Source: Nemertoderma westbladi (lineage: Eukaryota > Animalia > Xenacoelomorpha). From it: a stretch of 64,000 nt of DNA. The notes under the pieces are model-generated. The model did not search any database and was not told the DNA's origin. It saw only the letters and a list, made by a program, of their open reading frames with translations. Numbering within the stretch: the stretch's first letter is position 1; every line of letters begins with the position of its first letter. The translations under genes and the position numbers were made by a program. Where the stretch lies: contig JAUCBJ010006459.1 in NCBI GenBank assembly GCA_032718475.1, positions 36,552 to 100,551 of the forward strand. Reading direction: 5' to 3'. Of this stretch, positions 6,991 through 34,665 are shown piece after piece.

Positions 6991-7043
6991 TTAAATCAAA
7001 GTCTTACAAATTCGAACGTCAACGAACAACTTCGAACGTTACT

Positions 7044-11447: not shown

Positions 11448-11449
11448 AG

Positions 11450-12780: not shown

Positions 12781-14680
12781 TATTGGAAGAGACAGTAACA
12801 ATACCTGCAATATCCTACTGTAAAGTTTGTGAATCAAATCATAAATCCGACCTTCTCACCAAAACAGTAAACTCTAAGTAAGCGAATATATTGCAGTATC
12901 GATCTCTTATAACCGGTGAGGCAGAAAACAGTCTACGAGCAGACAAACTTCGATAAAACAAAATCCCGCGCAGCGAATCCTAAAATCAGGCTGACTCACT
13001 GACGGACTAAGGGGCTCGTATACCTTGCCGCGGTGTGATTTATATGGTTGGGCGAAGAGACGCTAGCTAGGTACAGAGGCAGATATTTGGAGATGTCTAA
13101 CTAGCGGGCAAAGCACAGTACGGACAAAGTTAATTTTATATATTTCGAGGTGTAAATAATTTCTAACGCGCGTGTGTTAATTCTGAACGGTCAAACAGTT
13201 TTGCTCCTTCACATATATAATTACTGGGTACGGTGTGCATTTTACGAATATTCTAATTTTATAACTTGTAGGTCCAATACTCACGAATGATAAGGTTCCT
13301 TCCCCTCTTGCGTATTTCCAGGACTCAAATTCAGGCATAAGGTTAATGCTACGCCCAGAATTCGGCAATTTTAGGTACCAGGTCCCTGATACTAAGAAGA
13401 GATGTGTTAGTTTACTACTGTAGGCGTACAGTTACTAATAGCTATCCTGGCTCCTATCTAGAATTTTAGTCACCCAGGTAGTCCGGGTAACTTCCTATTA
13501 GGGCGTTGGCGGGGACACGGTAGATGTTAGTATATCCCTGATAGCCTCAATTTATTTGCGCCTAGTATGTAAACTGCCCTACCGCCCGAACGGTACAATC
13601 CTAATTCAGGTGAAAACACAATAACCCTCCTAGCCTACAAGTTCTGATGTAATGGACACCGTTGTACGGCAAATAGTCACAGACGCACCTGTACTTAGCA
13701 AGAGTTAAGCGTACAGTTTGCTGCACCCTAACCAATTTGTATGCTTCGTACCGGTGTGCCTACGTCCTATCTGCATACTAGTATCTGCCTGCGCTCTCCC
13801 TCCCCCGTAGGAATGTGAAGGTCTACTGTAGGTTTTCCTGAATCAAGACAGTACAGTCCCTATGATGTAATTTTGGGCTTACAGCGTGTCACTACGTCTA
13901 CCTTTTGATCTTTTGGTCTTACACTTAGGTAGCAAGGATCGAACGCTGTCTAACCTTTCAGGCGATGGGCGAATAACTCTAAAATGGTATTGCGGGTTGT
14001 CTCTCGTCTACATTCCCGTGATGTTCCCGTTCATTGCTGCGGCCCGATCTCTAGCCGGCCATCCTGTCCCTGAGTTTGTTCACCGTAGTGAATCCATAGT
14101 AAAACAGATAGAAAAGCTGAGAGAATATTCTGACTTTATTACAGAAGATACAATTATAATACAATGCAATCTGAGAATAAACTAAGCACGACAGAATATT
14201 GATAAGATAATCTGTGAAGTAGAGATGTAAGTGAAGAAGTGAACTAATGAACGAAATCGCACCTTTATATACTAAATTTGTGCCGCAATCAATCGAGAAA
14301 ATTCTCGATTGTTCTATAGATTCTAACAAGGTTTTAAAGATAGCTATTGGTCCAGCTAATATATAACTTGCACGACATTGGTTACAATCAAATAACTACA
14401 GCCTCATTGGTACAGACAAATGCAATTAATTTGTAGCGGTTAATTTAAATGAGTTGAAATTCTGCACAAAAAATAATTCGCACTTACTAGGATTCGAACT
14501 CGATACCTACTACACATATAATTTCCAACGCTCTACCAACTGAGCTACTGAACCACTTGACCGATAGATGTACAAATGATAGAACCAATACGAATGAGAA
14601 CTCAAAGCAATCTTTACAAAGTTAATTCGAATAAAATAAAATTTTGAAAATCCACGGCATTTAGGGAATATAATTCTATA
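12781..14680 (-). repeat. 3' LTR of element A (1900 bp)
   Basis: Direct repeat of 32759-34660, with about 6 substitutions and 2 single-base indels seen by eye. Confidence 0.97.
14468..14554 (-). ncRNA. tRNA-derived Pol III unit within the 3' LTR
   Basis: GGTTCAGTAGCTCAGTTGGTAGAGC (A box, intact D arm), GAGTTCGAATCC (B box), T6 terminator at 14473-14468. Confidence 0.7.
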
Positions 14681-14899
14681 CCGCTCCATGAAAACAGGAT
14701 ATTATCGTGCATAAAATATACGGTTTTCACCAATAATCAATCAAACTATAGAATACTTAGGGCGTACTTACATATTTACAATTAAATTTCAAACAATACT
14801 TCCTTTCTACGTAATGATTCGATACAAAAATAATTACAAATTCAAACTTTACGTATTTAAGGCTTTACTAAGTAAGTACAATATAAATCTAAATTAAAT

Positions 14900-15552: not shown

Positions 15553-18500
15553 TTATCGCTTAGTGGATCGAGCCCTGCCGCGTCCTCGAAAACTGCGCAC
15601 AGGTGACTTTGCTCGCGATATGGGACTTGTGGGGCGAGTCACTGGTTTACTTGGGACGTTGAGAGACGGTGCGACTATTTCCTCGCAAATTCGTCTATTT
15701 GGCATCCCAAAACCTCGACCGATTCCTCGTGACCAATCAGTCGTCACTACAGTTGGTAGAACGTCTGGGAACGCGCGAAAGGCGGACGACGCAGACCCAA
15801 GAGTAGCTTGCGCCCCCTGTTGATCAGCTGGTGTATGTCCCGACCCTCCTACTGGTTCTCTTGGAAGTGATACCGTATCCCGAGTAACTCGAATAGTCGG
15901 CTCAACTCCTTTGCGTTCTTCTACATTAATAATTTTCTTTAATTGTTGGCCCACCTTTTGGACCCGTATGATCCTACCCTGCCCGTCCTCCCGAGGGTGA
16001 CGTGCAGACGGCGCAACCGGAGTGGCTGGTATATTCGTCGCCTCTAGGACCTCCTCTTCCTCGAATACGCTCGCTCGTATACGTTTATGGTAAAACGCGG
16101 CTCGGTACGCCCATGCGACGGTTAACCAAGCTCCCTTGTTCCGCTTTTCAGTTCGGAAACGATCGAATTCACCATACGTAATCCGATTAACGACTTTCTG
16201 AAAATTCCACGTGTTTTTGTTATCCGGGTGAATTTGTAACAGATACTCGCGCACCACTCGGAATCCGCTGTCGTGGGGCAAAATATCGACAACCTCGATA
16301 AGTTCGTCATATTGGGGCATAGCGGAGATATATCCTTCCGACATCATCGTCTGGGGATTTACCGCCCAAAATCCGAGATGCGCTCTCATCAGAAACCGTC
16401 TTCTCTGTGCCGATACATGTTCGTCGGCCAAATCTTCCCACTCATCAAATAACTTCCTTACGAGTTTTACAGATTCGTGTTCATAAGGTATGTCCCTTAG
16501 TTGGCATTCAGATGCTCGATGTCCCTTTATATTGCAGTAAGTACATTGAGCCATAAATCTCCAGCAAGTATAAAAGGTATGAGACCCTTGATCCCCACAC
16601 CATCCACAGATTAGCTGAGTCGTAGTAATGTGCTTTCCACTGCACTTTGACATATGATGTCCAGCGACGCCACATTTACTACACATCGTATTGGCAGGGT
16701 ACCACACTCGTTCGTATATAAGATCTCCAATCGGTCGAGCGCTTCCTCCCATACTATAATCGTAATCATCTGGGTCTATGGGTTGGTAGGTTTCTGAAGG
16801 TTGTATACAAACTATAGCATCTGTTGCTTCAAGTTGTCGAATCTCCGTCTGAGATTTCTTCGGGAGGTTCCTTTCTATCTCAAGAAGTTCCTCTAAAGGA
16901 TCGTCGGCGATCGTAGTAGTTACTTCGAATTCATCACCAAGGTGACCGATAGGCGCGCGCGTCTGCCGTGATTCATCCGTAATTTCCACGATACGTTCTC
17001 CTTCATAGGGTAACAATGTAAACATAGATGGTCTTTCGATAAGAGATCCCGCACAGCGAAGATACACGTCTCGAAATATGCTAAATCCTGCTCGAGTAAA
17101 GGCATTACACTGAGCGTCGGAGTTGTAGAAGGGTTCAAGGAATCGTCTAAACACGTCGGTACGAATTCTCCCTTCCATGTAGAACGTATGATCTTCTCCG
17201 AGACAAAGTGGATGTCTTTTGAGAGTGCGAGACACAATGTCGGCGATTAGGCAAACATTCACTGACGACTCTATCGCTAAATAATATTGTAAGACCGCTC
17301 TTGGAGGTGACGTAATAGCCCAATACAATACACGCATCCTCTCCATTTAAGCTGTGATTCAAACTCACTCATATCTGGAGTATCACCTTCTCCATAAGTT
17401 TCAATATACTTGTTTCTCTTATTTTCCTTATAATCCCAATTGAATAACAGGTAGGAAATGTATCCAGTTCCAGTCTTCTGAGTATTATACTCACGAAAAT
17501 ATCCCTGTTCTATAGACCACAGAATAAGAGGTCGAGTGTCGACGTATGGTGTCGGTAGTCGGTCATCGCTGTCCGTCATGCCGGCGAAGTCGCTAATTAA
17601 ATCCTCCCTTACTCCTGATCCAACCTTTACAACAGTTTTATCTAAAATCATGTTTCTTACCATCTTCGGTAGCATTCTAGCGTCAATATTACAAGCTTGG
17701 TCCATCTTCTTTACTATATCGGTGATAAGATGGTGTCGCTTTGTATTCGCTGGAGGTATCGGCATTCGTTTGTCGCTCCTCTGTCTACTGAAAACGTGCA
17801 GGACTCCGTCCGCCGCTCTAATTTGTATAGTCTTAGAAGTCAAACTCTGCTGATGACTGCCGCCCTCGTTATCGTAAAACATATAACCGTTTTCCTGAAA
17901 CGATCTAAACGTCCTAGTCCATTCATCCAACAATTCTTCCGAAGGTTGCCAAATCTTCTCTATATCCTTATCCTCATCGAAACGAATAACCTTACCTCGC
18001 CAATCTGCGGCAATATCTGTATCCGACTCGAAGGTTCCGGTTCCAATCCATAAACGAATCGTCTTGGTTAGATATCCTTTCAGATTACTCAGAGCTATGT
18101 CGGCACCAGCTCTATCCAGTTCCTTGAAATCTTGAATATGAGGTGGAACGTTGTGCACGACCTTTTGAGTAATATGTCTACGTAAATCATATATCTTACT
18201 CATATCGCTGAAAACAACTGCAGGAAGAAACTCCAAGTTTGAAATGATTTCTGGATGATCCACGATGGGTATTTCGTACGTCGTATCCTGTCGGACTGGT
18301 ATACTAATAGGGAAATTGAGTGTCGTACTCAATGGTTTCGTAGTTGAAGTACTATACGGTTGCATTTCTCTTGGCCTCTCCGGGGATGCAATCTGTAATC
18401 TCTGAATAACGTTTTGAGCAAAGTTTATGCTCTCGAAAACTTCCGGTGTCATCTCCTTAGCTGAAGTTTGATCGTGTGACGTCCAATGGCAAGGTAGGCT

Positions 18501-19283
18501 CGCGAGTCTTCCACCCCATTCTTCCATCTCACCTTTCTCGAAAGCCTTGTAGGCTCTGTATAGGCTAAGAGCTTCTTTCTTTTCGCGGGTTGACTGATTC
18601 GCCTCGTCCAGCGTAAGTTCAAATACATCGGGTTCAACAACCTTAGGTGGGTAAATGACAGTTTCTCCCGCCTTTGGTCCGGTCATAGCAAATGAATAAT
18701 ATGGATTCGATAAAGGATACCCTCCTTCCTGGTAGCGTAGTTGTTGATGATTCGAACACCTCGCCAATATCGGTTCGGGATTTTCCTTATTCAAACGCAT
18801 CGGAATCGCATTTCGTTGTTCGCGCATACAAGAACCGCATTGATAATAAAGTTTATAAACCGAAAATGCTTCCTTGGTTTCTCTATCGTCCCCTCGAGTT
18901 CGTCTGTAAAGATGCATTCCATCGAATTCATCGCGTACCGCGGGCATAGGTTCGTGCGCCTTTAGGTATTGCATGGTATGATACAAACGACTAATTTCAG
19001 TATCGGGGTCTTCGCTAATGTCTCCCGTATCACACAAAGCATCGTACGGGTAAAGTTCGTTGAAGGTTTGGCGCAAACTTTCGATTCTTTCGTTTAATGC
19101 GTTTTGCCTTCTCTTTAATACGTTCGAGTCATATTTAGTTCTCGCGAGTTTCGCTGTACTTTCCGATAATTCTTTTATACCGAATATAGTATAATCCTTG
19201 GCTCCAAATCTTTAGAATGGCGCTGCTGCCTCCTCTTGGATATCATATCCCCATCTCGGCTCTCCTTGTATCCCTTTCTCCAT
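15553..19283 (-). CDS. Accessory ORF of element A (~1240 aa reconstructed): DEDDy 3'-5' exonuclease, three CCHC knuckles, conserved motif, basic tail; nonsense codon at 19214-19212 and frameshift near 17345
   Basis: ATG at 19283 is in frame with ORF 19076-17277. FYDNEG; LPKMVRNMILDKTVVKVGSGVREDL; QYYLAIE. CSKCGVAGHHMSKC, CGWCGDQGSHTFYTC and CTYCNIKGHRASEC in ORF 17346-15553. Confidence 0.82.
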
Positions 19284-19948: not shown

Positions 19949-22900
19949 TTATTTACTAGTATTAGGTGGAGATTTGTAGTCTCCAGACTCGTTACGAGTC
20001 TCTTCAAGAAGTACGAGACGTTGAGTCGGTCTGTCTACTGTACGACCGTCAATTGTCCGTACTGTCACAGTCCTTGTCACTCCATCCATAGATGGATGTG
20101 TGGCTAAAATTACACCTGTTATCCAGAAGCGTCTTTTTAGATTCACTTCTGCCAACAGCACGTGATCTCCCGGCTTTAATGCGCGGGTGTTATTATACCA
20201 AGTTGTTCTGGCAGAAATAGAGGGCAAATAATGGTTTTGCCATATTTCCCAGAATTTGTTAGCCAGTAGTTGCGTGATTTTCCACGCTTTTCTACCGTAG
20301 CTGTCGCTTTCTATTGGAATAGAAATCGGCGTCAAAGTGGTCGGTGCCTGCATTAGCAGGTGTGCTGGTGTTAAAGCGAACTGAGATTGTTTGTCATCGG
20401 GTACTAATACTATTGGTCTAGTATTTAGTATTGCCTCGATTTCAACAAACAATGTTGTCAGTTGGTCGTCTGTTAATATGTGGTTTACTGGAATGACCTT
20501 TGCCATGGCTGTCTTTATAGATCTAATCAATCTCTCCCAGACTCCGCCTCTCCAAGGACTATCTGGAGGATTAAACTTCCAAACAATCTTGTGAGGTTGT
20601 AGTTCGTTCGAGATTTGATCATGATCTAATTTCTTAAAGGCTCTAGCAATCTCATTCCGAGCACCAACAAAGTTTGTCCCTTGGTCTGAGTACAAGCATT
20701 TCACTAGTCCGCGTCTAGCGATAAATCGCCGCAGTGCTAGTATAAACGCGTTGGTGGAAAGATCCATCACACGTTCAATGTGAACTGCCCTACTGGACAT
20801 ACATGTGAAAATCAGTCCCCAACGTTTTACTAGTATACGTCCACGTTTCGTATGTATGGGACCAAAGCAATCAATTCCAGTCTCTGTAAAAGGTGGTCTG
20901 AATGCTTGAAGTCGTGCTTGTGGTAGTTCACTCATTTCTTGGGTACCTATTCTAGAATGTACCTTTTTACAAATAATACACGTACGTGTCACTGAACTTA
21001 ACGCTTTACTGGGTCTAATCAATACAAATCTTGTACGTAAGTAGGAAAGACAGTGGTGTCTTCCAGCGTGTTTCAGATGTAGATGTGCGTCCAGTATCAT
21101 TGCACGTTGTAGTTCGTGGTGTTGCGGTATTATTATTGGGTACCTAAAGTTTGTGTTAAAGTCAATGTTTTGAAGCCGAGATTTATGACAAATTAAGCCA
21201 TTATAAATTATCGGACTCCAACTCAGTATTGGTGACGACTTGATTGGTTGACCTTGATTTATAGATGTGAATTCGCGCGCGAAATATCGCAGTTGATAAT
21301 GGCGAATTAATTTAATCTCACATCTGTCAATCTCAGTCAATGTAAGTCGACGCGTAAAGTCGCGTTTGCCTTTAACATATTGTACAAAACGTACAATCCA
21401 CGCTAATTTTCGGCAAGCGCTTGTCCAAGAATCTGTTAAGTTTACAATACGGTCGACATGAGTATTTGTGACGTCATCAGGTAAGTCAATGGAGATTTTG
21501 GAAGGTTTTGAATTACTAGAAGGGCCCACGGGTCCGCCGGTAGGTATTCCCTTGTTGACTGTTGATCCGTCGGGGTCTACAAGTAATTTGTCCTTCTTCG
21601 TCTTCTTACCTTGATCGTCAGTACTTTGTAAGTCGATCGTTAATGGTGGTTTGAACTCTATGGGGTCAGCAGGTTTCGGTAAACTTATTTTCCTGCCGAC
21701 ATTAATCCCAGGTCTCACCATAGGTTGCAAGTTCGGTATGTCTCTTGAGCGCAAAGTAACACCTGTATTTACATTAGCGTAGGTACTACCCACATCTGTA
21801 ATACATGAGGTTTCACCGTGCTTATGGTTGCTCAAGTGTGTCGAATTTGGTAGTTTGTCAATACAAGGCCGCTCCAATAGGGAAACTGCGGCTTTATTGT
21901 TAGTCGATACATTACTAATGTCCGGTAGAACATTTTGTGATGTTTCTGACAAAATGTCTAGTCGACTGTCTAGTAATGTGTCTGGCGATACGTCTGGTAA
22001 CGTATCTGGTTGTTTGTCAATAGAAGGCCGCTCCAATAGGGAAACTGCGGCTTTACTGTTTGTCAGTGTGTTACTAGCGTCTGGTGGAACATTTTGTGAT
22101 ATGTCTGGCAAAATGTCTGGTTGGCTGTCTAGTAACATGTCTGGTTGACCGTCTGGTAACGTGTCTGGTTGACCGTCTGGCGATATGTCTGGTGTAGAAA
22201 GGCTCGCAAGTCTTCCTCTCTTGACCTTTGAAGTTATATCTTTCCATTTTGCCTTCGGTTTCTTCTTGAGTTTTGCCGCCGTTGTCTTTTTCTTTGTCTT
22301 CCCCTTTTTTGGTTTCTTGATTTCGGCGTCCTTTGGGATAGTGTTGGATTTGTTGTCGTATAACGGAGGCCAATCTTGTGTCGATTTCTGCAAGAATTGG
22401 GGTCCGTGTTGCCAAAATTCTTTGTTCTCCGGTTTACAGAATTCCTCAGGCATCATTCCTCGCGACGCAATATCAGCTGGGTTTTGTGGTCCGGGACAAT
22501 GTCGCCAATCCTCTTTTATTGAACGGTCTAGAATTTCCGCGCGACGGTTAGCTACGAATGTCTTGAATTCGAGTGTGTCGTTGTTTATGTAAAATAAAAC
22601 CAACGTCGCGTCAGTCCAATAAAATATCTGTAAACTCGACTGTAGTTCTGTCTGTATGAGGTTCACGATGGTGGTTGGCAGGGTTGCGGCTTGTAGCTCG
22701 GCTCGTGGTGTCGTCATATACTTAGTAGGCATGGTCTTAGCCTTAGAAGTAATGAGCGAAACATCGAACTCGTCTGATTCTACTTGTCTGCGCAAGTACG
22801 CTGCCACACCAAAACCGTTGTCACTGGCGTCAGAAAAACAGTGTAGTTCCAAGTTGTCAGGAAATGTACTTTGTAATGGAAAGTAAACCCTGGGTATGGA

Positions 22901-24481
22901 ATAATCCTCTAGCGAAGATAATTCCGCCTCCCAGGTCTTCCATAAGTCCACTTGGTCTGATGAGATCGGCTCGTCCCATGTTAGTCCATCCTTCCATATA
23001 CTGCGCATATAAATGCGGGCTTGCAGTATCACTGGACTGATGAATCCTAACGGATCGAACAATCGGCTCAACTTTGACAAGCATGATCTCTTTGTCAGTG
23101 TGTTCTCTTGACTGTCCAGTCTCACTTTCACTCGGAAGTTGTCTGTGTTTGGGTCCCAAAAGAGCCCCAACACCTTAGTCGTCGGTAGTGGTTCGAACTC
23201 TAGGTCTATGTCACCACCTCCACGCTCAGTCGTCCCGAATGAGTCTACTAATTCGGCACTGTTTGAGGCGAATTTGGTGAGGTTAAAACCTCCGCCCGCT
23301 AAGCAGTCCCGTAATTGATGTGCTACTGTTGTAGCACGTTCTACTGTGTCGCAACTCTGTAAACCGTCATCTACATAAAAGTCACGCTCCACAATCCTAA
23401 TTATCTCTGGGTCATACAGGTGTTTCTGATCCCTAGCGGCCTGCTTTAGGGCGTACATCGTGCAATTTGGGCTGTCTCTGGCACCGAAAACGCGAACTTG
23501 CATTTGGTAAGTCGCCGGTGGTAAACTTAAGTCTCCTTCCGGGTACCAGAGGAACCGCAAACTGTCTCTGTCTCGCTCTAACGCTCTCACTTGGTGAAAC
23601 ATCGCTTCAACGTCACAAGTAAAAGCTACTTGACGCTGACGGAAGCGCATAATCACCCCCATAAGATAATTATTCATGTTTGGTCCATCCATCAACTCAC
23701 TATTGAGGGACATTCCCTCAAACAGAGCCGCGCAGTCGTTGACTACGCGTACTTTATCTGGTTTGTCGGGATGTCTCACATAGTGATGTGGCAAGTAATA
23801 GGTTTGGTCAGTCACTATCTCCGGGTTAGTCATTCGGATAGCGTATCCCTTAGTCAAATACGTCTCCATCTGAGTGTTGTACTGCAGATGGGCCTTCTCG
23901 TCCTTTAATAGACGTTGCCGTATTGAGTGTAGACGTCTTAAAGCCAGTGGATAGTTGTTTATAAGTTTAGGACTTTGGCTACGCCATAACATCCCTACCT
24001 CATAATGTCCGTCTTTCGTCTGGTGGATAGTATCTTCCATGATCTTCAGAGATTGTTTCTCCTGTTCCGACATACAAGGTTCGTAGCTACCAGGTTCAGG
24101 TGTATCTTGTTCTAACCACCTGATAGTCTTCTCCGTTAATTCCTTGTCTAGCACAGCTTGTTCCAACTGATGATTTCTCAACGCGTCATCATCGATCTCG
24201 ACGGGCACTGTTGAGGTTATTGGGGTAGGTAGACTCGCAAGCCTATCATCTGTCGTCGATGGAATCTCTAGCTGACTCGTCTTCTCCCCAAGTTCTAAAC
24301 TCACCTGGTGAATTAGCTGCTCCTTGTGACTTATCATACTAGTTACACGTCTGTTATGTTTTGTCGACTGTAGTGTAGTATGGTTCACGTCGTGTGAGAA
24401 GGAATGAATTGAATTTGTAGTTAATAAACTACATGTACTCTGTACATCGTCTTCCTCGTCACTTACGTCTAGTGTGCGCAC
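19949..24481 (-). CDS. pol: BEL/Pao pol: RT, peptidase A17/RNase H, low-complexity insert, integrase
   Basis: YLPHH, KVRVVNDC, DVEAMFHQV, FGARDSP, FYVDDG, KVLGLFW, FDPLG, FSDAS, PRAEL, NPADIASRG, GIDCFGP, SDQGTNF, WERLI, LTPAHLL. Confidence 0.97.
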   Translation of the reverse strand: MRTLDVSDEEDDVQSTCSLLTTNSIHSFSHDVNHTTLQSTKHNRRVTSMISHKEQLIHQVSLELGEKTSQLEIPSTTDDRLASLPTPITSTVPVEIDDDALRNHQLEQAVLDKELTEKTIRWLEQDTPEPGSYEPCMSEQEKQSLKIMEDTIHQTKDGHYEVGMLWRSQSPKLINNYPLALRRLHSIRQRLLKDEKAHLQYNTQMETYLTKGYAIRMTNPEIVTDQTYYLPHHYVRHPDKPDKVRVVNDCAALFEGMSLNSELMDGPNMNNYLMGVIMRFRQRQVAFTCDVEAMFHQVRALERDRDSLRFLWYPEGDLSLPPATYQMQVRVFGARDSPNCTMYALKQAARDQKHLYDPEIIRIVERDFYVDDGLQSCDTVERATTVAHQLRDCLAGGGFNLTKFASNSAELVDSFGTTERGGGDIDLEFEPLPTTKVLGLFWDPNTDNFRVKVRLDSQENTLTKRSCLSKLSRLFDPLGFISPVILQARIYMRSIWKDGLTWDEPISSDQVDLWKTWEAELSSLEDYSIPRVYFPLQSTFPDNLELHCFSDASDNGFGVAAYLRRQVESDEFDVSLITSKAKTMPTKYMTTPRAELQAATLPTTIVNLIQTELQSSLQIFYWTDATLVLFYINNDTLEFKTFVANRRAEILDRSIKEDWRHCPGPQNPADIASRGMMPEEFCKPENKEFWQHGPQFLQKSTQDWPPLYDNKSNTIPKDAEIKKPKKGKTKKKTTAAKLKKKPKAKWKDITSKVKRGRLASLSTPDISPDGQPDTLPDGQPDMLLDSQPDILPDISQNVPPDASNTLTNSKAAVSLLERPSIDKQPDTLPDVSPDTLLDSRLDILSETSQNVLPDISNVSTNNKAAVSLLERPCIDKLPNSTHLSNHKHGETSCITDVGSTYANVNTGVTLRSRDIPNLQPMVRPGINVGRKISLPKPADPIEFKPPLTIDLQSTDDQGKKTKKDKLLVDPDGSTVNKGIPTGGPVGPSSNSKPSKISIDLPDDVTNTHVDRIVNLTDSWTSACRKLAWIVRFVQYVKGKRDFTRRLTLTEIDRCEIKLIRHYQLRYFAREFTSINQGQPIKSSPILSWSPIIYNGLICHKSRLQNIDFNTNFRYPIIIPQHHELQRAMILDAHLHLKHAGRHHCLSYLRTRFVLIRPSKALSSVTRTCIICKKVHSRIGTQEMSELPQARLQAFRPPFTETGIDCFGPIHTKRGRILVKRWGLIFTCMSSRAVHIERVMDLSTNAFILALRRFIARRGLVKCLYSDQGTNFVGARNEIARAFKKLDHDQISNELQPHKIVWKFNPPDSPWRGGVWERLIRSIKTAMAKVIPVNHILTDDQLTTLFVEIEAILNTRPIVLVPDDKQSQFALTPAHLLMQAPTTLTPISIPIESDSYGRKAWKITQLLANKFWEIWQNHYLPSISARTTWYNNTRALKPGDHVLLAEVNLKRRFWITGVILATHPSMDGVTRTVTVRTIDGRTVDRPTQRLVLLEETRNESGDYKSPPNTSK

Positions 24482-24493
24482 AGGCGCTCGAGT

Positions 24494-25470
24494 TTACCAC
24501 CCTATCGGCGTTCTGCAGGCGTATGCGTTTCCCGCTACAACTGCCGATGGTCTGGTTTCCCACACCTGATGTAGGTTGAATTGGTCCGTCCCGATCAGCA
24601 TTGCTACCGATCTATAATTGACAGGACATTCGGGTACACCAAGGTGTCTGAAATACTTACGGTCCTCTAGAGATTGTTCCGGCACTGGACCTAGTAGGTT
24701 ACTAAAGTCCTTCGTGGCCGCAAAGGTTAGATCTCTAAAAGGTAACAAAGACCTCTCCCTCTCGCTGTGCTGCGATTTTGGAAGAAGAGAGTCTAAGTCC
24801 AACTTAACTCGTGTCACTGGTATTGCACGCTGTCCGTGCATACTACTTACTGTATAACTGACGTGCTTACCTTGCTTAAGATCCGTCACTACGTCAGCTA
24901 TCTTTTCATCCACGTAGCTATGAGATGAGGCTGAATCTAGAATCGCGTAGATCCTCTTACTCCCCTTTGTGCCAGTGATCTTAATCGGGATTACACTGAA
25001 TCCCTTCAGTTGGTCAGTGGTCAGAAGCGCGATCGACGGTTGTTCGTCTCCATTAGAATATTCGTCGTCGTCTTCTGATTCTTCGTCCGACGATCCGGAT
25101 TGTTCTGAGAAGCAATCCTCAATATGGGTCACGAAGGTTGGAGTCGTTTTCGATTCTCGTTTTCGGTAAGCCGCATCACATCTCGCTGCTGCTTCCGGGT
25201 GTTCCCTGGCGAAGCGTTTCGTCGGCGTGTGGCTGTCTGTGTGGAGCAGACCGTCGTGGTTGCGTCCACAGGATGGACAAGTGTCGGTATTTGGGCAATC
25301 TTTACGGACGTGTCCGTGTCGCGTACACCGCCAACAAGAGTCCAGTGGCCGTATTTGCAGCCGTCGTTCTTCCGAGTTCAACTCGCGAAATTGTCGACAA
25401 CCTCGTAACTTGTGACCGATATACCGCTTACCTAGATGCTCGCAGTATTGGCAGCCACTGAAGTCGGTAC
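24494..25470 (-). pseudogene. BEL/Pao triple Cys-His nucleocapsid and aspartic protease; in-frame TAA at 24496-24494 separates it from RT
   Basis: CQYC..H...C, CWRCTRHGHVRKDC, CPSCGRNHDGLLH; AILDSASSHSY; MLIGTD; TPIGW. Confidence 0.9.
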
Positions 25471-25534
25471 CAAGTTGCTGTCTCGTTTGTTTTGTCCCAA
25501 TGGGCGCAGATACCCTACCTCCGTCCGAGAATTG

Positions 25535-26338
25535 TCATGATTCCGTCGGTGTGGTGTAAGTGGCCGTCTTAGTGGATGTTGTCTGGGGTTTTTGTCGGTT
25601 GGAAGATGGCAATGTGATTCCTTCTGCCACGATGTGCTGGTCGGTGTAGTTAGATCTAGTTTCTACTACTGCCTCCCTGGATATTAAAAGGTACACATCT
25701 TCTAATTTTAAGAATCCTCCCCGCTCCTCTCGCTGGTATTCGACCTTCCTCCACTCCCGACGAAGTCGATGGTGGAGTCGTCCTATGATTTTTAATAGGA
25801 CTGTAGGAGTATTCCCGTAATCAAGTTGTCCAATTGATCTTAAGGTAGTGATAGCGTTCTTGATCTCGTCAGCTAGTTTTAGTAAGTCGACGGGTTTAGT
25901 GATAGCCCCTCCCTTACAGAGTTCCTCTATTACTGACCTGGCCATGCTCACTGTACCTCCGTATATCGAAGTTAAACGATCGTACGCTAGTTCGAAAGCG
26001 TCTGGTACACCGACGAAAGTCTCCGCCAAACGTTTAGGTTCTCCTGACAACGTTTGGAGCAGGTAATTGAACTTCTCCCGTGATGTGAAGGCGCACACGG
26101 CGATCTGGGATTCGATATAGTCTACGAAAGTATGCCAGTGTTTTGAGCTACCGGAAAACTTCGGTGGTTGTTGTACCGGCAATCCTTGTCTGGCTGCGAA
26201 TTTCGCTATCTCCTCGGCAACGTTCAGAGTTTCGCGTCCTTGGTTGGTAACCAGGTTGATATTCTCCCTTCTTGGCGCTTTTCCCTGATACGATGTGGGG
26301 TTTGAAGGTACCGGTCTTTGTGGTTCCTTCGGGTGTCT
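25535..26338 (-). pseudogene. gag: gag core (DUF1759-like) of element A, downstream of the DNA transposon insertion
   Basis: LPVQQPPKFSG..KHWHTF...KFNYLLQTLSGEPK...AYDRLTSIYG; frame open up to 26338. Confidence 0.9.
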
Positions 26339-29300
26339 TAGGGTGCATCAAATTTTGAAATGTTGGAAATTGATTATGCCTGGGTGATGTTTGTGTTCCA
26401 TTTGGGGAATTATGATGTGTGGACAAAAATTGTTCAATTCTGACGACATTTAGAGGTCCCACACCACCATGTTATATTTTAGCAACGGGCGATAAAACGC
26501 GATCAATATAGTTTCCACGAACGATCAAAATATCAATGTGCATGTATTTAGAAAAGTTTTGAAGTAATATTTATGTAAGAATTGTAATTTGCTTTAAAAT
26601 GATATGCTGCATGATGTACTTCAGAACATATATAAAGGACATAGCAGATATCAGCGTCTGGCTTCAGCCGAGCTGTATTTTTAGGTTTAGACCAATATAG
26701 ATCTATATAGCATGGAAGTAGCTTTGCTGATATAGTTTATACAATTAAACATATTTTAATAATGTTAATTTAGATTTCAAAACTTTTCAAAATTTCCTTA
26801 TCATATTAAGTTTTTTTCCTAATTCTTGTTCAAATAACACAAATAACTTCAAATAACTAATTGCAAACGGCAGAGATGTGATTGCGATATTCGATTAAAC
26901 AGTAAATTTGAACTCAAATTGAATATGAAAACATTTATGTGATAGCATCAACATTGATATATTCAAGAAATCAAGGTATATTAAATTATATGAATAATTG
27001 TTCCTAGGTGAAAATATTTATGGGCATAATAAGACACTGGATAGAAATATATAGAACATTCACAATTACCAATTATAGTATTAACAATATTTATATCAAT
27101 TATTTATTGAATTCTACACTAATACTATATAAAATATCACTCTAAATGGGTTAGGCAGACATATATAATATACACATATAGTACAATTGTTTATCAATCA
27201 GTCTTTTTGTTTATTTAGTCTTTTACATTTCCGTATATTTGGTCTCATTTTACTCCGTAAGTTTGGTCTCATTTTACGATCTTTCTCAACAACTTGCAGG
27301 ACGTTTTGAAAATGTTCTTCTGATTTGGCTGCTGACAGAAAGTCGCTGGTGAGCTTAACACCCCTTTCAGGACCATCGTTCAAAACATTCACTGAAGTAG
27401 CACGTGCTTTGCTTAATGCAAAGGCTGGATCGTTACACCAGTCTTTAACAGGGTTTTCGAGAAAACTTATATCTAACTTTAACATGTTAATTGTAAACCA
27501 AGAATCTGTTCCAGCCAATTCTGATAGTGTGGTAGCTGGGGTGATGCTCTTAGGAAATACTGGCTTTCCAAATCCAACACCAAATCGTTTATGAGGCACA
27601 GTTATTATCTCATTAGGTTTAATGGATAGTAAAGTGTCAGCAAGTTTGCGCAGCTCATCATGGGGTACTTTGTTGCTAAATAATGCAAGAGGTATCATTT
27701 CTTCTGTTAAGTACCAGAGATGACGATGAAATGCTTTGAGAGCCGAAGTTGATATAAGTCTATTTACACATTGATATTGAAGCAGCCGTTTGTAAAGTAC
27801 TAGATCATTCCATGGTGCATCTATCGCATTACCACAAGTTAACCACCATATACTGTAGACATGAGTTATGAATATGACAAACTCTCTAATTTTACTCACT
27901 TGCTGAATGCTGGTTATAGTTCCAGGAGGTAAAATAGCTATTTGTTTCTCAAATAAAGATAATTTTATACAATAAAGTAGTTTGGCCATCCACCTAGCCT
28001 TGTGCACTGCCCCTGGTCGCTGAAATGAAATTTGTTCATCCATGGCACCTACAAACAATAGTGAGAGTTGAATAAACTCTCTATAATCGTCCCGTTGCAG
28101 TTCCAGTCTGGCAGTTGCTAGCAGTTTCAACTCATTCTCTAGCAATGCAAGAAAGTCTTTGGAGTCGGAATTGGATGTCTCTGCATCAATCTGAAAATAA
28201 CTAAGCTCTTCATCAGATATATTTGGCATAAGGCCCCAATTATTTCTTAAGCGAATGAATAGAGAACTATCTGGAGATTTTGATACCTCAATTTTCAGGT
28301 CCTCAAATACATGTCCAATTAGAAGCTCTCCTATATGGTGACGACATCCAGACCATAAGAGGGGTTTGTTAATCCTTCCCTGAATAGAGATGCAAGCAGC
28401 TGATAAATGACCAGTATTTGAAGTTGTTGTGTCAAATGTCATATTGACAATATTATCAACACATTTCCACTTCTCAAGAAGAGGGTAAGTCAGACCAGAA
28501 ATTATATCACCAGAACCCTGATCCGAACCAGGCTTGTAACTTGGTACACCAAGCAACTTCAAATCGGTAGAGTCACCAACAAGGATAGCTACTCTCTCTT
28601 CGGATTTGTATTTATTTGATAATGTTCCCAGTAGCTTACTATCCCACTGAAGGGAGCATAGTTCTGGAGGTATCCATGAGTCATGATAATCCTTAGCTAC
28701 TTCTTTAACAATTGAACGCCGCGCTCTATCTGCCACTGCATATGATGTGGAAACACTTCCTATATCTCCTCCAGATTCTTCAATGATACCCTGTGTGAAG
28801 GCTGCTTGTTGCATTGGGGTCATTTTCAGTCTTGTTGCTAAAGAAACAACATTTGGTCTTTGCAGTATGTTGCTAGGAATTACAACTGATGTTCCTGTTT
28901 TTGTCTTTTTTTGTTCTTTTGTGGTAATACTGTTACCTCAAAATCAGATTCCAGTCCTGATTCCGATTCACTAGAATATTGAAATTGCTTTGTAGATGCG
29001 ATAACTTGTAGTTCATTCTTGCTTAAGATCTTCCTCTTTGTCTCAGCCATTTCTCTGTCCAAAGAACGCTTTACTTTATTATCTAATGTTTTATCATATG
29101 ATCCAAATGATGCAATACGATCTGTCTTCATGGATATTAAAAAAGCAAGGTCTTCTTTATTTTTTATAGTCTTTTCAGCATCGTGTGCCCATAGTTGTAA
29201 TGTTGATTCCATTCTTAATTCCATATCCTTTACTTTAATCTCTGTAGCCGCAGTACATCTCCTATCTTTTGGTATTGCACGAAGCTTGTTGTTATCATCC

Positions 29301-29604
29301 ATGAGCTTAACAATTTTATCACAACATCTCTGATCAGACAACATTGGAATACTGGCTTTTCTGTAAAATGGCCTGATTTTGTCAAGTATAATTTTTGATG
29401 TCTCCAGTCTTGAAAAAGTTCCACATCTTCCAGGGCGCTTTGATGATTTACCAGTCGATTTCATATGATGGTACAACATACATCTTAACACTTGACGGCA
29501 AGTTGGCAATCTAGTTCCATTAATTATACCATCATCATCCGTGATTGCTTTTCCTAAGCCAAAAATATATCCTGACTGCCGCGTTTTTGGAGTACTAATG
29601 TTAG
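26339..29604 (-). mobile_element. hAT-related (hATm-like) DNA transposon nested in gag; one TIR retained, the other end deleted
   Basis: TAGGGTGCATCAAATTTTG terminus at 26339; abrupt composition change; no matching TIR or TSD near 29604. Confidence 0.8.
27198..29600 (-). pseudogene. hATm-like DDE transposase (frameshift near 28900-28950)
   Basis: RLPTCRQVL, LQWDSK, FDTTTSNTG, CRHHIGEL, RDDYREF, PGAVHKARWMAK, HLWYLTEE, NDGPERGVKL. Confidence 0.85.
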
Positions 29605-31952
29605 GTATTGTGTTCGAATTCGGAATTTCTCGAACTGTCGGTGTAACCTTCCTCCAGACGTTCCTCGATCTGAGCCAACTTGTTAACAACTGGTGGCAGA
29701 ATGTCGGCGAACTGTTGTGTACTAATTGCGTCCGTTGGTTGTAACGCCTTCGGTGTTGGTGTATTCTGTGGAGGATTGTCTGCAAAGGAGTTGTCTGAAC
29801 GCTCGCGTTTATATTCATCGGCCGCCCCTGTTCTAAATACCTCGCGTTTCGGGTAATCCGATTCGCTCGAAGTACTACTATCATCTGGATATGGTGGTCG
29901 ACGTGCTCGCGTTCGTTGCGTCGTACGAATTCTCACGTTACGTTTCGGAACATCGTCCACTGATCTCCGTTGTTCGGTAGGCTCACAAGTCTTCCTCGAA
30001 GTCGTAGATTGCGATGTAAACTGATTGAACGGTCACGTCGCTGTTCTCCGTTGTTCGGTAGGCTCACAAGTCTTCCTCGAAGTCGTAGATTGCGATGTAA
30101 ATTGGTTGAATGGTGGGCGAATGACAGCATTTGAAACAACTGGCCTTGTGGGTCGAAACGTCATTGGGTAAGCGTAGTGTGTAACGGGTTTAGGTGTCGA
30201 CGGTGGACTCACCTGTTTTGTCGTCAGTAATGCAGGTCCAGTCAACAAACTACTACGATCCGTAATCGGTGGGTTACTTACCTTGACTTTCGGAATGGGC
30301 GACGACGTTGCTCTTGGCGGTGTAAACTCGTCCGGAATAACAAACCTGTGTTCCGTCGCACCATGGATAGGAGATATGTTACTACTACCCGCAATCGAAA
30401 CAGGTTCCTTAGTCGTAACCGGTGCAAACATATGAGTTACCTGTGGGAATCGTTGACACAAGTCTTTTACTAATTGTCGTTCCCGTCCGGGTGCTCCTAC
30501 GCTTCCTTCCTTCTTTCGTTCCTGAATTTGGCGATGTCTTACCTCTATCTGGTCCAAGTCATGTCCGTCTCGAGATCTCATCGATCGATCGCGGGCCTTT
30601 TGATCCAGATCTTCCTCAGCGTTCGCTAATTCTCTCGCCTTCTTCTCGAGTTCGAAATGAAGTTTAGCTGTCTTCTCTCGTTGTTCCGTTTGTCGTTGTT
30701 GCGCCTCAAACTCTGCTTGTCGTATAGCGGATTGAGCTTTTATTTGCCGTGTTTTCATTTCGGCCCGTGCTTCCGAAACTAACCTGTCTCGTTCTAATTC
30801 CGCCGCTGCCGCTGCCGCTTGTCGCTCTGACTCGGCTGCTGCCGCTGCCGCTTGTCGCTCTGACTCGGCCGCTGCCGCTTGTCGCTCTGACTCGGCCGCT
30901 GCCGCTGCCGCTTGTCGTTCTGACTCGGCCGCTGCCGCTGCCGCTTGTCGGGCAATGTCTACCTCTAACCTTTCTACTTCAGCTGCTTCTAATTCAGCTT
31001 GTTCCTGTAGATGAGAGATTCTCGCTATATTCGCAACGCGTAGCTTCTCTTCCTCTACTGCTGCCTGCATCACTAGAAGTTGAGCTTGTTCCTCCATTTC
31101 TCGTCGTTGTCGGTAGAATTCTTGCTGTTGTCGAGCAACTTCTGACGTGACCATACTTCCCTCGCAGATTTCGCTACGAATACTTACCAGCGATTGATTT
31201 AGTATTCCCGGTGCCGATTCGATTTGTGCGAATGAAGTTTCCCTCGTATATTCCGGCACGGTTTCCAAATCGCCGACGTCTTCGCCGCACATGCGTAAGT
31301 GGTCCGTCAGGTGTTTTAATCGTCCATCCAGTCGGTACAGTTCCTGTTCTTCCTCGGGTTGTAATAATTCGTCCGAAACTGACTCACCTAACAACTGGTC
31401 CGCTTGTTCCTGTTGTATCTGTCTAATCGTCGACTTAAACTGAATCAGTTTCTCTCTAGTGATCATTAGTTTCTCGAGGATTCTAAGTTGAGTATCCATG
31501 TCCTGTCTCTGTCTAGCTAGATCTTGTAGGCCAACTAGATTATCTACGGACTTATATACTTTACTCTGTACTCTAACCTGGAGGGTGTAGAACTCGAATC
31601 GAGACATCGGAGCAGTCAACCCGTCTAATATGCGTTGGCCTTCTCCAATACTCCTGGTTATATGCGCCATGTATCCACCGACGCTTCTAACCACACTTTC
31701 TGTGCTTCCTGCTGAACTTACCATTTCCGTTTCCCTGTATCTAGGTTGCGGAACAGTTAGAAAGTCCTCGGTCCTGCCGTCGCCTCGTACTACGGCATCC
31801 GGTACTCCCGTTGGATGTACTGGTGACGCACACGGTGTAGGTTCGGTAGGCTCGCGAGTCTTCCCCTGTTGTTCTTCCGCTGCTGACTTATCTCCGTTGC
31901 ATGAGTCATAGTCGGTAGGTGTGTTCTTCGTATAGTCTTGTTTGTCACTCAT
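29604..31952 (-). pseudogene. gag: gag N-terminal coiled-coil region of element A (in-frame TGA at 30035-30033; ERQAAAAAAES repeats; 81-bp duplication)
   Basis: ATG at 31952; the frame continues past the TGA into ORF 29960-29601. Confidence 0.85.
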
Positions 31953-32747
31953 TTCGGTAGTTGTAAGTCAAGTAAAGTGAGTGTCAAAGTATCGAGTTTA
32001 CCGTATTTATCTAAACGGTACTAATTACAGTCTTATAAAATTAGCCTACCGGCCGATTTTATAGCAGATGGATAAAATTAGCCTAAACGGCCAATTTTAC
32101 AGCAAATAAATGTCACGGAATAAGTATATAATAAAATTAGCCTAGCGGCCAATTTTATAACAAATAAATCGGATAACGATATGCGTTATCAAAAGGTAAA
32201 TTAAATACAATAATACGGACTAATTCAGCAATGAACAAAGAAATCATACGGAATGCATAAATACTTGAGACAGTGGAACCCACAATAATTTTAACTAATA
32301 CGGTAATGCCTAACTTATTTATGCAACTTTTCGAACTCACCCACTCCAATAATTCTCCAGAAAAACAGATTCCCAGATACAAACCGAACGTGAACCTTTC
32401 CGTTTTTAACGTTGCGGACGAAACGCGATTTTCCCAACCAAAGTTGTTGAGTTATCTATCTCCCAAACTTGCTAAACACGGTCTTGCTCCCGTTACAGTC
32501 TAGAAATGAGTTCTGAATCCTGAAAAAACAAAAGAGTTAGGTTTTACTTTACGAAAATTTTGTACCGGTACAATATGGTATTTAAACCCCTTTAAACACC
32601 GGTATTCAATTCCAAAATATTGTACACGCGGTTCAAATCAAAATTATATTTCAAAAAATTAGCACTTAGCTAATCAAATACGAATTTTACCTCAAAATAC
32701 AAAATTTTCAAATAACTTTAGTCCTACCGAACCGTAGTTCAGTAAAA

Positions 32748-32758
32748 CACATTCCTAC
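32748..32758 (-). promoter_or_regulatory. Primer-binding position of element A: GTAGGAATGTG (non-tRNA type)
   Basis: Flush with the 5' LTR end; lacks TGG; complementary to an 11-mer inside the LTR. Confidence 0.55.
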
Positions 32759-34660
32759 TATTGGAAGAGACAGTAACAATACCTGCAATATCCTACTGTA
32801 AAGTTTGTGAATCAAATCATAAATCCGACCTTCTCACCAAAACAGTAAACTCTAAGTAAGCGAATATATTGCAGTATCGATCTCTTATAACCGGTGAGGC
32901 AGAAAACAGTCTACGAGCAGACAAACTTCGATAAAACAAAATCCCGCGCAGCGAATCCTAAAATCAGGCTGACTCACTGACGGACTAAGGGGCTCGTATA
33001 CCTTGCCGCGGTGTGATTTATATGGTTGGGCGAAGAGACGCTAGCTAGGTACAGAGGCAGATATTTGGAGATGTCTAACTAGCGGGCAAAGCATAGTACG
33101 GACAAAGTTAATTTTATATATTTCGAGGTGTAAATAATTTCTAACGCGCGTGTGTTAATTCTGAACGGTCAAACAGTTTTGCTCCTTCACATATATAATT
33201 ACTGGGTACGGTGTGCATTTTACGAATATTCTAATTTTATAACTTGTAGGTCCAATACTCACGAATGATAAGGTTCCTTCCCCTCTTGCGTATTTCCAGG
33301 ACTCAAATTCAGGCATAAGGTTAATGCTACGCCCAGAATTCGGCAATTTTAGGTACCAGGTCCCTGATACTAAGAAGAGATGTGTTAGTTTACTACTGTA
33401 GGCGTACAGTTACTAATAGCTATCCTGGCTCCTATCTAGAATTTTAGTCACCCAGGTAGTCCGGGTAACTTCCTATTAGGGCGTTGGCGGGGACACGGTA
33501 GATGTTAGTATATCCCTGATAGCCTCAATTTATTTGCGCCTAGTACGTAAACTGCCCTACCGCCCGAACGGTACAATCCTAATTCAGGTGAAAACACAGT
33601 AACCCTCCTAGCCTACAAGTTCTGATGTAATGGACACCGTTGTACGGCAAATAGTCACAGACGCACCTGTACTTAGCAAGAGTTAAGCGTACAGTTTGCT
33701 GCACCCTAACCAATTTGTATGCCTTCGTACCGGTGTGCCTACGTCCTATCTGCGTACTAGTATCTGCCTGCGCTCTCCCTCCCCCGTAGGAATGTGAAGG
33801 TCTACTGTGGGTTTTCCTGAATCAAGACAGTACAGTCCCTATGATGTAATTTTGGGCTTACAGCGTGTCACTACGTCTACCTTTTGATCTTTTGGTCTTA
33901 CACTTAGGTAGCAAGGATCGAACGCTGTCTAACCTTTCAGGCGATGGGCGAATAACTCTAAAATGGTATTGCGGGTTGTCTCTCGTCTACATTCCCGTGA
34001 TGTTCCCGTTCATTGCTGCGGCCCGATCTCTAGCCGGCCATCCTGTCCCTGAGTTTGTTCACCGTAGTGAATCCATAGTAAAACAGATAGAAAAGCTGAG
34101 AGAATATTCTGACTTTATTACAGAAGATACAATTATAATACAATGCAATCTGAGAATAAACTAAGCACGACAGAATATTGATAAGATAATCTGTGAAGTA
34201 GAGATGTAAGTGAAGATGTGTAACTAATGAACGAAATCGCACCTTTATATACTAAATTTGTGCCGCAATCAATCGAGAAAATTCTCGATTGTTCTATAGA
34301 TTCTAACAAGGTTTTAAAGATAGCTATTGGTCCAGCTAATATATAACTTGCACGACATTGGTTACAATCAAATAACTACAGCCTCATTGGTACAGACAAA
34401 TGCAATTAATTTGTAGCGGTTAATTTAAATGAGTTGAAATTCTGCACAAAAAATAATTCGCACTTACTAGGATTCGAACTCGATACCTACTACACATATA
34501 ATTTCCAACGCTCTACCAACTGAGCTACTGAACCACTTGACCGATAGATGTACAAATGATAGAACCAATACGAATGAGAACTCAAAGCAATCTTTACAAA
34601 GTTAATTCGAATAAAATAAAATTTTGAAAATCCACGGCATTTAGGGAATATAATTCTATA
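32759..34660 (-). repeat. 5' LTR of element A (1902 bp)
   Basis: Direct repeat of 12781-14680; TATA-like TATATAAA near 34250 and ATATAAA near 33020 on the minus strand. Confidence 0.97.
34448..34534 (-). ncRNA. tRNA-derived Pol III unit within the 5' LTR
   Basis: Same sequence as 14468-14554. Confidence 0.7.
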
Positions 34661-34665
34661 GAGCC

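What the first reader, a model, noticed from the sequence alone, without database searches (positions are those of the whole stretch)
32748..32758. Element A lacks a tRNA PBS; its PBS is exactly complementary to an 11-mer in its own LTR (possible self-priming)
Seen: on the sense strand the 5' LTR ends ...CCAATA and is followed directly by GTAGGAATGTG, with no TGG to pair with tRNA CCA. The sense LTR contains the perfect complement CACATTCCTAC (13807-13817; 33786-33796), and its 3' C would pair flush with the LTR end. A chance 11-mer match within 1.9 kb is on the order of 1 in 1000-2000. The copy at 627-634 retains GTAGGAAT. Known: Tf1/sushi chromoviruses self-prime through an ~11-nt duplex, while BEL/Pao elements use tRNA. 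Inference: self-priming here. If the 11-mer is not at the RNA 5' end, a cut or 3'-5' trimming would be needed to expose the 3'-OH, which is a possible role for the accessory exonuclease.
Basis: partly seen in the sequence, partly recalled or inferred. Interest (0 to 1): 0.8.

Follow-up and report, generated by a model that had tools for sequence, protein, structure and literature searches.

The report
Self-priming signature in giant BEL/Pao retrotransposon
A young 22-kb jumping gene of the BEL/Pao group has no tRNA landing site; where DNA copying would begin it carries 11 bases that match its own terminal repeat, and ten related families show the same self-match with different letters, so it likely starts copying itself with a piece of its own RNA, which I found described only for other retrotransposon groups.

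Summary
Observation confirmed. Element A is a BEL/Pao retrotransposon (minus strand, 34660-12781; LTRs 1.9 kb, 8 differences; 5-bp TSD). The 11 bases after the 5' LTR contain no TGG and are the exact complement of LTR bases 33796-33786 (chance about 1 in 1000 per position).

Covariation across families holds. 11 of 12 related loci with resolved LTR ends (10 families) lack TGG and match their own LTR for 10-15 nt, 7 of them across a predicted intron. Mismatched leader/LTR pairs reach 11 nt in 0 of 156.

Two side claims fail. The copy at 1-653 is an LTR with a duplicated end, not a PBS variant. The exonuclease is not needed: self-matching relatives have no room for one.

Best reading (0.78): Tf1-like self-priming, cut by RNase H. 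Not shown: RNA 5' end, the cut, exclusion of tRNA fragments. A lies on a long branch outside the relatives' group.

The scan noted this signature before in other genomes. Nine literature searches found no report for BEL/Pao; ICTV lists tRNA priming.

The parts
32759..34660 (-). 5' LTR of element A, 1902 nt, TATA...CAATA termini
   Evidence: 8 differences from the 3' LTR; boundaries by TSD and by contig ends
12781..14680 (-). 3' LTR of element A, 1900 nt
12776..12780 (+). target-site duplication GAGCC (left copy)
34661..34665 (+). target-site duplication GAGCC (right copy); the element splits a LINE ORF (endonuclease 11423-12823, RT 34628-36052)
32748..32758 (-). primer-binding-site position, 11 nt, flush with the 5' LTR, no TGG
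33786..33796 (-). candidate self-primer: exact complement of the PBS, LTR positions 865-875, 1027 nt upstream of the PBS
   Evidence: unchanged in the X4 and X6 contigs that span it
13807..13817 (-). same 11-mer in the 3' LTR
33778..33785 (-). G-rich arm of a predicted inner 8-bp helix that continues the primer/PBS duplex
   Evidence: prediction only
32763..32770 (-). U5-end arm of that inner helix, separated from the PBS by 4 unpaired bases
   Evidence: prediction only
32721..32748 (-). predicted 12-bp hairpin with a UACG loop directly 3' of the PBS
   Evidence: z -3.5, 0 of 200 shuffles as stable
34245..34390 (-). three CCAAT boxes and a TATA box (34251): candidate upstream promoter, about 455 nt before the 11-mer
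   Evidence: motif scan; function untested
33529..33534 (-). AATAAA downstream of the 11-mer, the poly(A) signal the model needs (another lies upstream at 34119)
   Evidence: use untested
19949..31967 (-). gag-pol region (DUF1759, YVDD RT, Pao peptidase A17, integrase, DUF5641); broken by stops near 25535 and 24494, a frame change with an 81-bp duplication near 30033, and a nested insertion
15553..19211 (-). accessory ORFs 17277-19211 and 15553-17346 (overlapping, different frames); the C-terminal part of the first resembles WRN-like 3'-5' exonucleases, the second has a weak CCHC knuckle
   Evidence: score 0.93, PF01612 in 38% of cluster members; 25% identity over 220 aa to element B ORF; no Pfam, phmmer or meaningful PDB hit
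14681..14692 (-). short purine-rich tract before the 3' LTR (PPT position)
   Evidence: sequence only
1..653 (+). variant A-family LTR whose end is duplicated and includes 8 nt of the PBS; followed directly by the pol of another BEL element (B)

Best explanation
Element A is a BEL/Pao retrotransposon whose primer-binding site is the exact complement of 11 bases in its own LTR, and it likely primes reverse transcription with that piece of its own RNA instead of a tRNA. Shown: geometry, no TGG, and the same self-match with different letters in ten related families. Predicted: the RNA folds back over a 1027-nt loop so that 33796-33786 pairs with the PBS, helped by an inner 8-bp helix with the U5 end and a stacked hairpin 3' of the PBS. 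Inferred by analogy with Tf1: the element's RNase H cuts just 3' of base 33786, RT extends that 3'-OH through U5 and R, and the strong-stop DNA jumps to the RNA 3' end, which must extend past the cut site, so the AATAAA at 33534 would be the one used. Whether the 11-mer is at the RNA 5' end (about 55%) or internal to an RNA started at the TATA box 455 nt upstream (about 45%) is open.
For: Exact flush 11-mer, chance about 1e-3. 11 of 12 related loci with resolved LTR ends (10 families) lack TGG and match their own LTR for 10-15 nt at offset 0-4; the one TGG locus reaches 4 nt; a second TGG family reaches 9 nt. Controls: 3 of 156 mismatched pairs reach 10 nt (2 are loci sharing one PBS), 0 of 156 reach 11; 4 of 650 downstream windows reach 10. 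Blind scan of 7 more loci: in 6 the best match in 900 nt is 10-13 nt and starts 0-3 nt after an ACA (one of them tied with a second 11-mer). Sister families L036/L054 differ at 3 of 11 PBS positions and each matches its own LTR. The matched site starts GTA or GTT in 9 of 11 families including A. In A the best partner of the last 30 nt of U5, of 1835 LTR windows, lies directly 3' of the 11-mer; the whole duplex is -35.8 kcal/mol against -22.4 for the best site elsewhere. The end-duplicated LTR variant ends flush with the full 11-nt site and carries the 8-nt remnant inside the LTR, which fits this site setting the start of the minus strand.
Against: No direct evidence of priming, of the cut or of the RNA ends. 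A has a long end branch (1.9) and lies outside the 93/97 branch holding the ten self-matching families; nesting with five of them is rejected (AU p 0.002), so their evidence transfers to A only as a prior. The duplex is in the predicted best fold only if the RNA starts within 19 nt of 33796; starts at 33825 or further up cost 4.8-17.7 kcal/mol, yet the only clear TATA box is 455 nt upstream. The inner helix is not general in the relatives (permutation P 0.37), and a rival partner at 33985 is nearly as good (-21.4 against -22.3). Three other 11-12-nt LTR complements lie in the leader. No covarying change within the A family was seen, with little power.
Confidence: 0.78

Rival explanations
1. 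The pairing is real and selected, but it is a regulatory or packaging structure that closes the 5' domain; the primer is something else, such as a tRNA fragment or other small RNA with the same 3' letters.
For: Half-tRNA primers exist in Ty1/copia (PMC6317226 passage). The host tRNA set could not be examined (no genome held). The 1-kb loop is about ten times longer than in the relatives.
Against: Each of ten families has a different PBS that matches its own LTR and not the others'; a host primer would have to track all of them. The match always starts 0-4 nt from the LTR end, where a 3'-OH is needed.
Confidence: 0.1
2. In A itself the match is chance, and A, a distant lineage, primes by an unknown route.
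For: Many windows were scanned; the per-position chance is 1e-3; A is not shown to belong to the self-matching group; other 11-mers occur in the leader.
Against: It needs no TGG, a flush 11-mer, a GTA start like the relatives and an adjacent inner helix all to coincide.
Confidence: 0.07
3. Self-priming as above, but the 3'-OH is exposed by the accessory 3'-5' exonuclease trimming an RNA back to the duplex.
For: The accessory ORF resembles WRN-like exonucleases (a lead) and has a relative in element B.
Against: Self-matching relatives have no room for such an ORF. DEDDy ORF3s occur in unrelated rotifer LTR elements, with no PBS or priming passage in that paper (PMC5408684 passages). An exonuclease needs a free 3' end, so it would act in trans or after an endonucleolytic cut.
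Confidence: 0.05

Closest known systems
Tf1/Tf2 of Schizosaccharomyces pombe, Tj1 of S. japonicus, and the Tf1/sushi and Tcn1 groups (Ty3/gypsy)
   Same: No tRNA site; 11-nt PBS complementary to the element's own LTR; a cut 3' of the 11-mer would give the primer (PMC7175516, PMC4600332, PMC6317226 passages).
   Different: A is BEL/Pao. [quoted passage not shown] Six related families form the match only across a predicted intron.
TAR lineage of Ty1/copia (Houba, Osr-1)
   Same: Self-priming predicted from sequence outside the Tf1/sushi group (PMC6317226 passage).
   Different: Plant Ty1/copia; different superfamily and domain order.
Belpaoviridae (BEL/Pao) as defined by ICTV 2021
   Same: LTRs, gag-pol with Pao-type domains, PPT, metazoan-type relatives.
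   Different: ICTV gives an 18-nt PBS for tRNA-Arg or tRNA-Gly, 4.2-10 kb genomes and 0.2-1.2 kb LTRs (PMC8742986 whole text). A has no such PBS, is 21.9 kb (with a nested insertion) and has 1.9-kb LTRs ending TA.
Juno and Vesta LTR retrotransposons of bdelloid rotifers with DEDDy ORF3
   Same: Accessory 3'-5' exonuclease-like ORF downstream of pol (PMC5408684 passages).
   Different: Other lineages; no link to priming was proposed in the passages seen; homology to A's ORF was not tested.

Membership tests
BEL/Pao (Belpaoviridae) | LTR-flanked element with target-site duplication | tested here: met
BEL/Pao (Belpaoviridae) | gag-pol with RT, RNase H region and integrase in BEL/Pao order and Pao-type domains | tested here: met
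   DUF1759, Peptidase_A17 (E 3.5e-42), Integrase_H2C2 (below cut-off), DUF5641; YVDD in the ORF; 1154 homologues, best 43-45% identical, all 120 listed with PF05380. RVT_1 itself did not hit A's pol at E 0.01.
BEL/Pao (Belpaoviridae) | 18-nt PBS complementary to the 3' end of tRNA-Arg or tRNA-Gly (ICTV) | tested here: not met
   no TGG in the first 60 nt after the LTR. Filed as BEL/Pao by its proteins; it departs from the stated priming rule.
BEL/Pao (Belpaoviridae) | genome 4.2-10 kb, LTR 0.2-1.2 kb (ICTV range) | tested here: not met
   21.9 kb, LTR 1.9 kb
Tf1/sushi self-priming group | Ty3/gypsy (chromovirus-related) Pol | tested here: not met
   Pao-type domains and homologues; not a member
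Tf1/sushi self-priming group | about 11-nt PBS next to the 5' LTR, complementary to the own LTR | tested here: met
Tf1/sushi self-priming group | the complement is the first 11 nt of the transcript | not testable with these tools
   only contigs were served, none on record as RNA; folding favours a start within 19 nt, the TATA box argues for an upstream start
Tf1/sushi self-priming group | RNase H cut 3' of the primer | not testable with these tools
   needs a biochemical assay
Tf1/sushi self-priming group | additional RNA structure around the PBS (U5-IR-like stem) | tested here: inconclusive
   inner helix and 3' hairpin predicted in A; inner helix not general in relatives; the Tf1 structure papers were seen only as reference titles
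tRNA-fragment-primed elements (half-tRNA copia type) | PBS complementary to an internal stretch of a host tRNA | not testable with these tools
   no host genome held; 0 tRNA genes in the window

The most novel reading that the evidence does not exclude
Self-priming is the normal mode of a large part of BEL/Pao diversity, a third superfamily, and unlike Tf1 the primer need not be the RNA's first bases: it is cut out of an internal site, built by splicing in many families and reached across a 1-kb loop in giant element A, possibly as an independent origin.
Probability: 0.35. Interest if true: 0.82.

Novelty: new variant of a known kind. Interest (0 to 1): 0.66.

Why it matters
ICTV describes BEL/Pao elements as tRNA-primed and their replication as poorly understood. 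If they self-prime, tRNA-independent priming occurs in all three LTR-retrotransposon superfamilies. That bears on whether self-priming or tRNA priming came first, and on how elements escape control by host tRNAs and tRNA fragments. It would also explain why annotation tools find no PBS in many BEL/Pao elements. The intron-spanning primers in the relatives would tie host splicing to the start of replication. The claim is directly testable by mapping RNA ends and strong-stop primers.

Tried and rejected
Whole host genome: none held, so no in-genome survey of sister families and no host tRNA comparison. Sequencing runs: no RNA holder listed; only contigs could be laid, which cannot show starts or ends. 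The gap in run X5 over the 11-mer is a part without cover and was not used. Runs X8 and X10 laid nothing. Within-family covariation: no variant row fell in either 11-mer, but only 40 of 116 and 40 of 114 rows were shown and about half a variant per 11-mer is expected, so this has no power. Splice-junction primer in A itself: best 8 nt against 11 contiguous; rejected for A. Extension of the duplex 3' of the PBS (a 7-bp helix after a 4x1 loop): it competes with the stable local hairpin; not used. A general inner helix in the relatives: rejected (P 0.37). L048/L068 as a clean compensatory pair: the two sites look alike locally and differ by one matched A/T change, but MAFFT did not align them, so it is counted as suggestive only. 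Closer relatives of A in viral contigs: 0 loci. Exonuclease ORFs: no Pfam hit, 0 phmmer hits among 1.84 billion representatives, no hit for element B's ORF, one irrelevant PDB hit. ARAGORN and Rfam called nothing in the LTR. The ends of the nested insertion in gag were not found. The careful 36-row tree did not finish (quick tree); a 16-row careful tree did; no outgroup, so no root.

Full report
THE OBSERVATION. Element A lies on the minus strand from 34660 to 12781, inside a LINE whose endonuclease and RT halves flank it. Its LTRs are 1902 and 1900 nt with 8 differences, begin TATA and end CAATA, and are flanked by the duplication GAGCC. Directly after the 5' LTR the sense strand reads GTAGGAATGTG (32758-32748); there is no TGG in the next 60 nt. 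The complement occurs once per LTR, at 33796-33786 and 13817-13807, and nowhere else in the window. Its 3' C would pair with the first base after the LTR. The chance is 3.5e-4 by Markov shuffles (7 of 20000; 2e-3 for offsets 0-5) and about 1e-3 per position empirically (17 of 18078 internal positions, 63 of 57980 elsewhere). Three more 11-12-nt complements lie in the first 800 nt of the leader, so the single match is suggestive, not sufficient.

WHAT THE ELEMENT IS. Pfam finds DUF1759, Pao peptidase A17, an integrase zinc finger (below cut-off) and DUF5641. The RT-RNase H region has 1154 homologues, the best 43-45% identical, from cnidarians, hemichordates, molluscs, echinoderms and fish where named. 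It is a divergent BEL/Pao element. Its gag-pol is broken by stops, a frame change and a nested insertion. Downstream of pol lie two overlapping accessory ORFs. The first resembles WRN-like 3'-5' exonucleases by language-model features (score 0.93, 170 of 256 features, PF01612 in 38% of cluster members) and matches the accessory ORF of element B in this window (25% over 220 aa). Pfam, phmmer and PDB searches gave nothing, so the exonuclease is a lead.

COVARIATION ACROSS FAMILIES. No host genome was held. I fetched relatives from metagenome contigs: 540 were confirmed in 20 of 64 parts of the collection and the best 80 kept, at 37-43% identity. Of 31 loci whose repeats I inspected, 12 had both LTR ends resolved, 7 had only the LTR start, 2 duplicated families already counted, and 10 were dropped because the repeats did not define an LTR end. 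Earlier scan notes gave me the idea to allow matches across an intron; I fixed the intron rule after a first loose look. Of the 12 loci, 11 (10 families; L050 and L073 share a PBS) lack TGG and match their own LTR for 10-15 nt, starting 0-4 nt after the LTR. Four matches are contiguous (L001, L048, L054, L068) and seven span a GT-AG intron of 67-186 nt. The one locus with a TGG site, L016, reaches 4 nt; a second TGG family, L013/L039, reaches 9 nt. Mismatched leader/LTR pairs reach 10 nt in 3 of 156 (two are the L050/L073 pair) and 11 nt in 0 of 156; downstream leader windows reach 10 nt in 4 of 650. In a blind scan of the 7 loci with unknown LTR end, the best match in 900 nt was 10-13 nt and began 0-3 nt after an ACA in 6 (one tied with a second 11-mer, one the family of L050); L072 reached 9 nt. 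Sister families L036 and L054 differ at 3 of 11 PBS positions, each matched in its own LTR. The matched site starts GTA or GTT in 9 of 11 families including A. In 9 of 11 relatives a poly(A)-like hexamer is present, always downstream of the matched site, as strand transfer after a cut would require. The hosts of these contigs are unknown and may be few.

HOW FAR THIS TRANSFERS TO A. In a 16-row tree the ten self-matching families are on one side of a 93/97 branch. A has an end branch of 1.9 and attaches outside it, unresolved with the TGG families; nesting A with five of the families is rejected (AU p 0.002). A may be a sister lineage or an independent origin. Evidence within A: the best partner of the last 30 nt of U5 among 1835 LTR windows lies directly 3' of the 11-mer (-22.3; a rival at 33985 gives -21.4), and the whole duplex is -35.8 kcal/mol against -22.4 elsewhere. 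From the other side, 31 of 3806 windows pair as well with that G-rich arm. A 12-bp UACG hairpin follows the PBS (z -3.5). The inner helix is not general among the relatives (P 0.37). The duplex is in the best predicted fold, with pair probabilities of 0.92-1.0 for ten pairs, when the RNA starts at 33796, and stays for starts up to 33815; starts from 33825 to 34225 cost 4.8-17.7 kcal/mol. Yet the only clear promoter motifs, three CCAAT boxes and a TATA box, lie 455 nt upstream. Long-range folding is unreliable, so the RNA start is open.

THE COPY AT 1-653. Contigs in runs X2 and X4 carry the sequence of window 635-653 between two LTR ends, and one X4 contig shows that variant end followed by the unchanged 11-nt PBS. 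So 628-653 is a duplicated LTR end that contains 8 nt of the PBS, and the copy ends at 653 inside element B's pol. The variant is informative in another way: its LTR ends flush with the full site, not the 8-nt remnant, which fits the 11-nt site fixing where the minus strand starts, whatever the primer. The LTR 11-mer is unchanged in the X4 and X6 contigs that span it; the variant tables were cut (40 of 116 and 40 of 114 rows) and have no power for covariation.

THE EXONUCLEASE. In 7 of 10 self-matching families pol ends 121-388 nt before the 3' LTR; in the other 3 the end of pol was not detected, but the internal regions are 5.7-5.9 kb. The signature therefore does not depend on an accessory ORF. 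DEDDy ORF3s are known from rotifer LTR elements (PMC5408684, passages).

MECHANISM. Shown: geometry, lack of a tRNA 3'-end site, family-specific self-matches. Predicted: the fold. Inferred from Tf1, where the first 11 bases pair with the PBS and RNase H cuts between bases 11 and 12 (PMC7175516, passages): a cut after 33786, extension through 1027 nt of R and U5, and transfer to an RNA end formed downstream of the cut (AATAAA at 33534, not 34119). Confidence 0.78. Rivals: selected structure with another primer 0.10; chance in A 0.07; exonuclease trimming 0.05.

WHAT IS KNOWN. ICTV gives BEL/Pao an 18-nt PBS for tRNA-Arg or tRNA-Gly (PMC8742986, whole text). Self-priming is described for Tf1/sushi, Tj1 and Tcn1 and predicted for TAR copia elements (PMC4600332, PMC6317226, PMC7175516, passages). 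Passages in PMC3601003, PMC5445492 and PMC5443660 mention it only for Tf1 or chromoviruses, or as an ancestral state. Term look-ups in the BEL/Pao surveys PMC554778, PMC3118150, PMC2774666, PMC6238403 and PMC8220671 found no passage on BEL/Pao priming. Nine searches showed no report of self-priming in BEL/Pao. The library lacks most subscription papers, Repbase and GyDB entries; I opened no supplements, which could hold PBS tables; the Levin and Butler papers were seen only as reference titles. Seven earlier scan notes report the same signature in other genomes; none exists for this genome or this sequence. They are unchecked and are not counted as support.

VERDICT. A real feature, most likely a known mechanism in a superfamily not known to use it, with possible twists (internal or spliced primers, a 1-kb loop). 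New variant of a known kind; interest 0.66.

Noticed in passing
window 34448-34535 (minus strand; also 14468-14555): tRNA-like A box and B box followed by six T in the U3 part of both LTRs, in the sense direction; looks like a tRNA-derived SINE head or Pol III promoter (motifs recognised from memory). ARAGORN and Rfam call nothing.
   Followed up: partly
window 32902-33605, run X4 record of 701 nt: One contig has 96 differences from the LTR; the run shows 84 T>C places on + (A>G on the sense strand) in 32690-33900, and a second contig continues past 33723. It looks like a copy made from A-to-I hyper-edited RNA (inference); a single run.
   Followed up: no
window 32721-32748 (minus strand): 12-bp hairpin with a UACG loop directly after the PBS, z -3.5.
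   Followed up: partly
window 1-653: LTR variant with a duplicated end holding 8 nt of the PBS; seen in runs X2 and X4 too, so it has spread as a subfamily.
   Followed up: yes
window 27198-29932 (minus strand): Two ORFs of a transposase-like insertion inside gag; 252 homologues of about 800 aa, up to 58% identical, none with a Pfam domain or informative name. The DNA-transposon label is my recall; ends not found.
   Followed up: partly
window 654-7050: Element B, another BEL/Pao 3' half with its own exonuclease-like ORF (4055-5311, continuing in another frame to 5747), a tandem-repeat block at 2980-3590 and a probable 3' LTR starting TGT near 6459; its 5' end is outside the window.
   Followed up: partly
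window 32521 (minus strand): Strong splice-acceptor-like sequence in the leader (branch-point-like CTAAC, pyrimidine tract, CAG); an intron ending here could remove the PBS from a translated RNA.
   Followed up: no
window 32759, run X4 loose end: Two contigs continue from the LTR end into sequence that partly resembles the leader (agreement only 0.65); possibly a diverged subfamily with another PBS. Unexplained.
   Followed up: no
L027, L046, L006, L036, L071, L073/L050, L007, L040, L065, L080: The PBS complement is formed only after removing a GT-AG intron of 67-186 nt from the LTR; sister families L036 (spliced) and L054 (contiguous) differ in this.
   Followed up: partly
window 8450-10730 (minus strand): A third, broken gag-like region of BEL type (by eye).
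   Followed up: no
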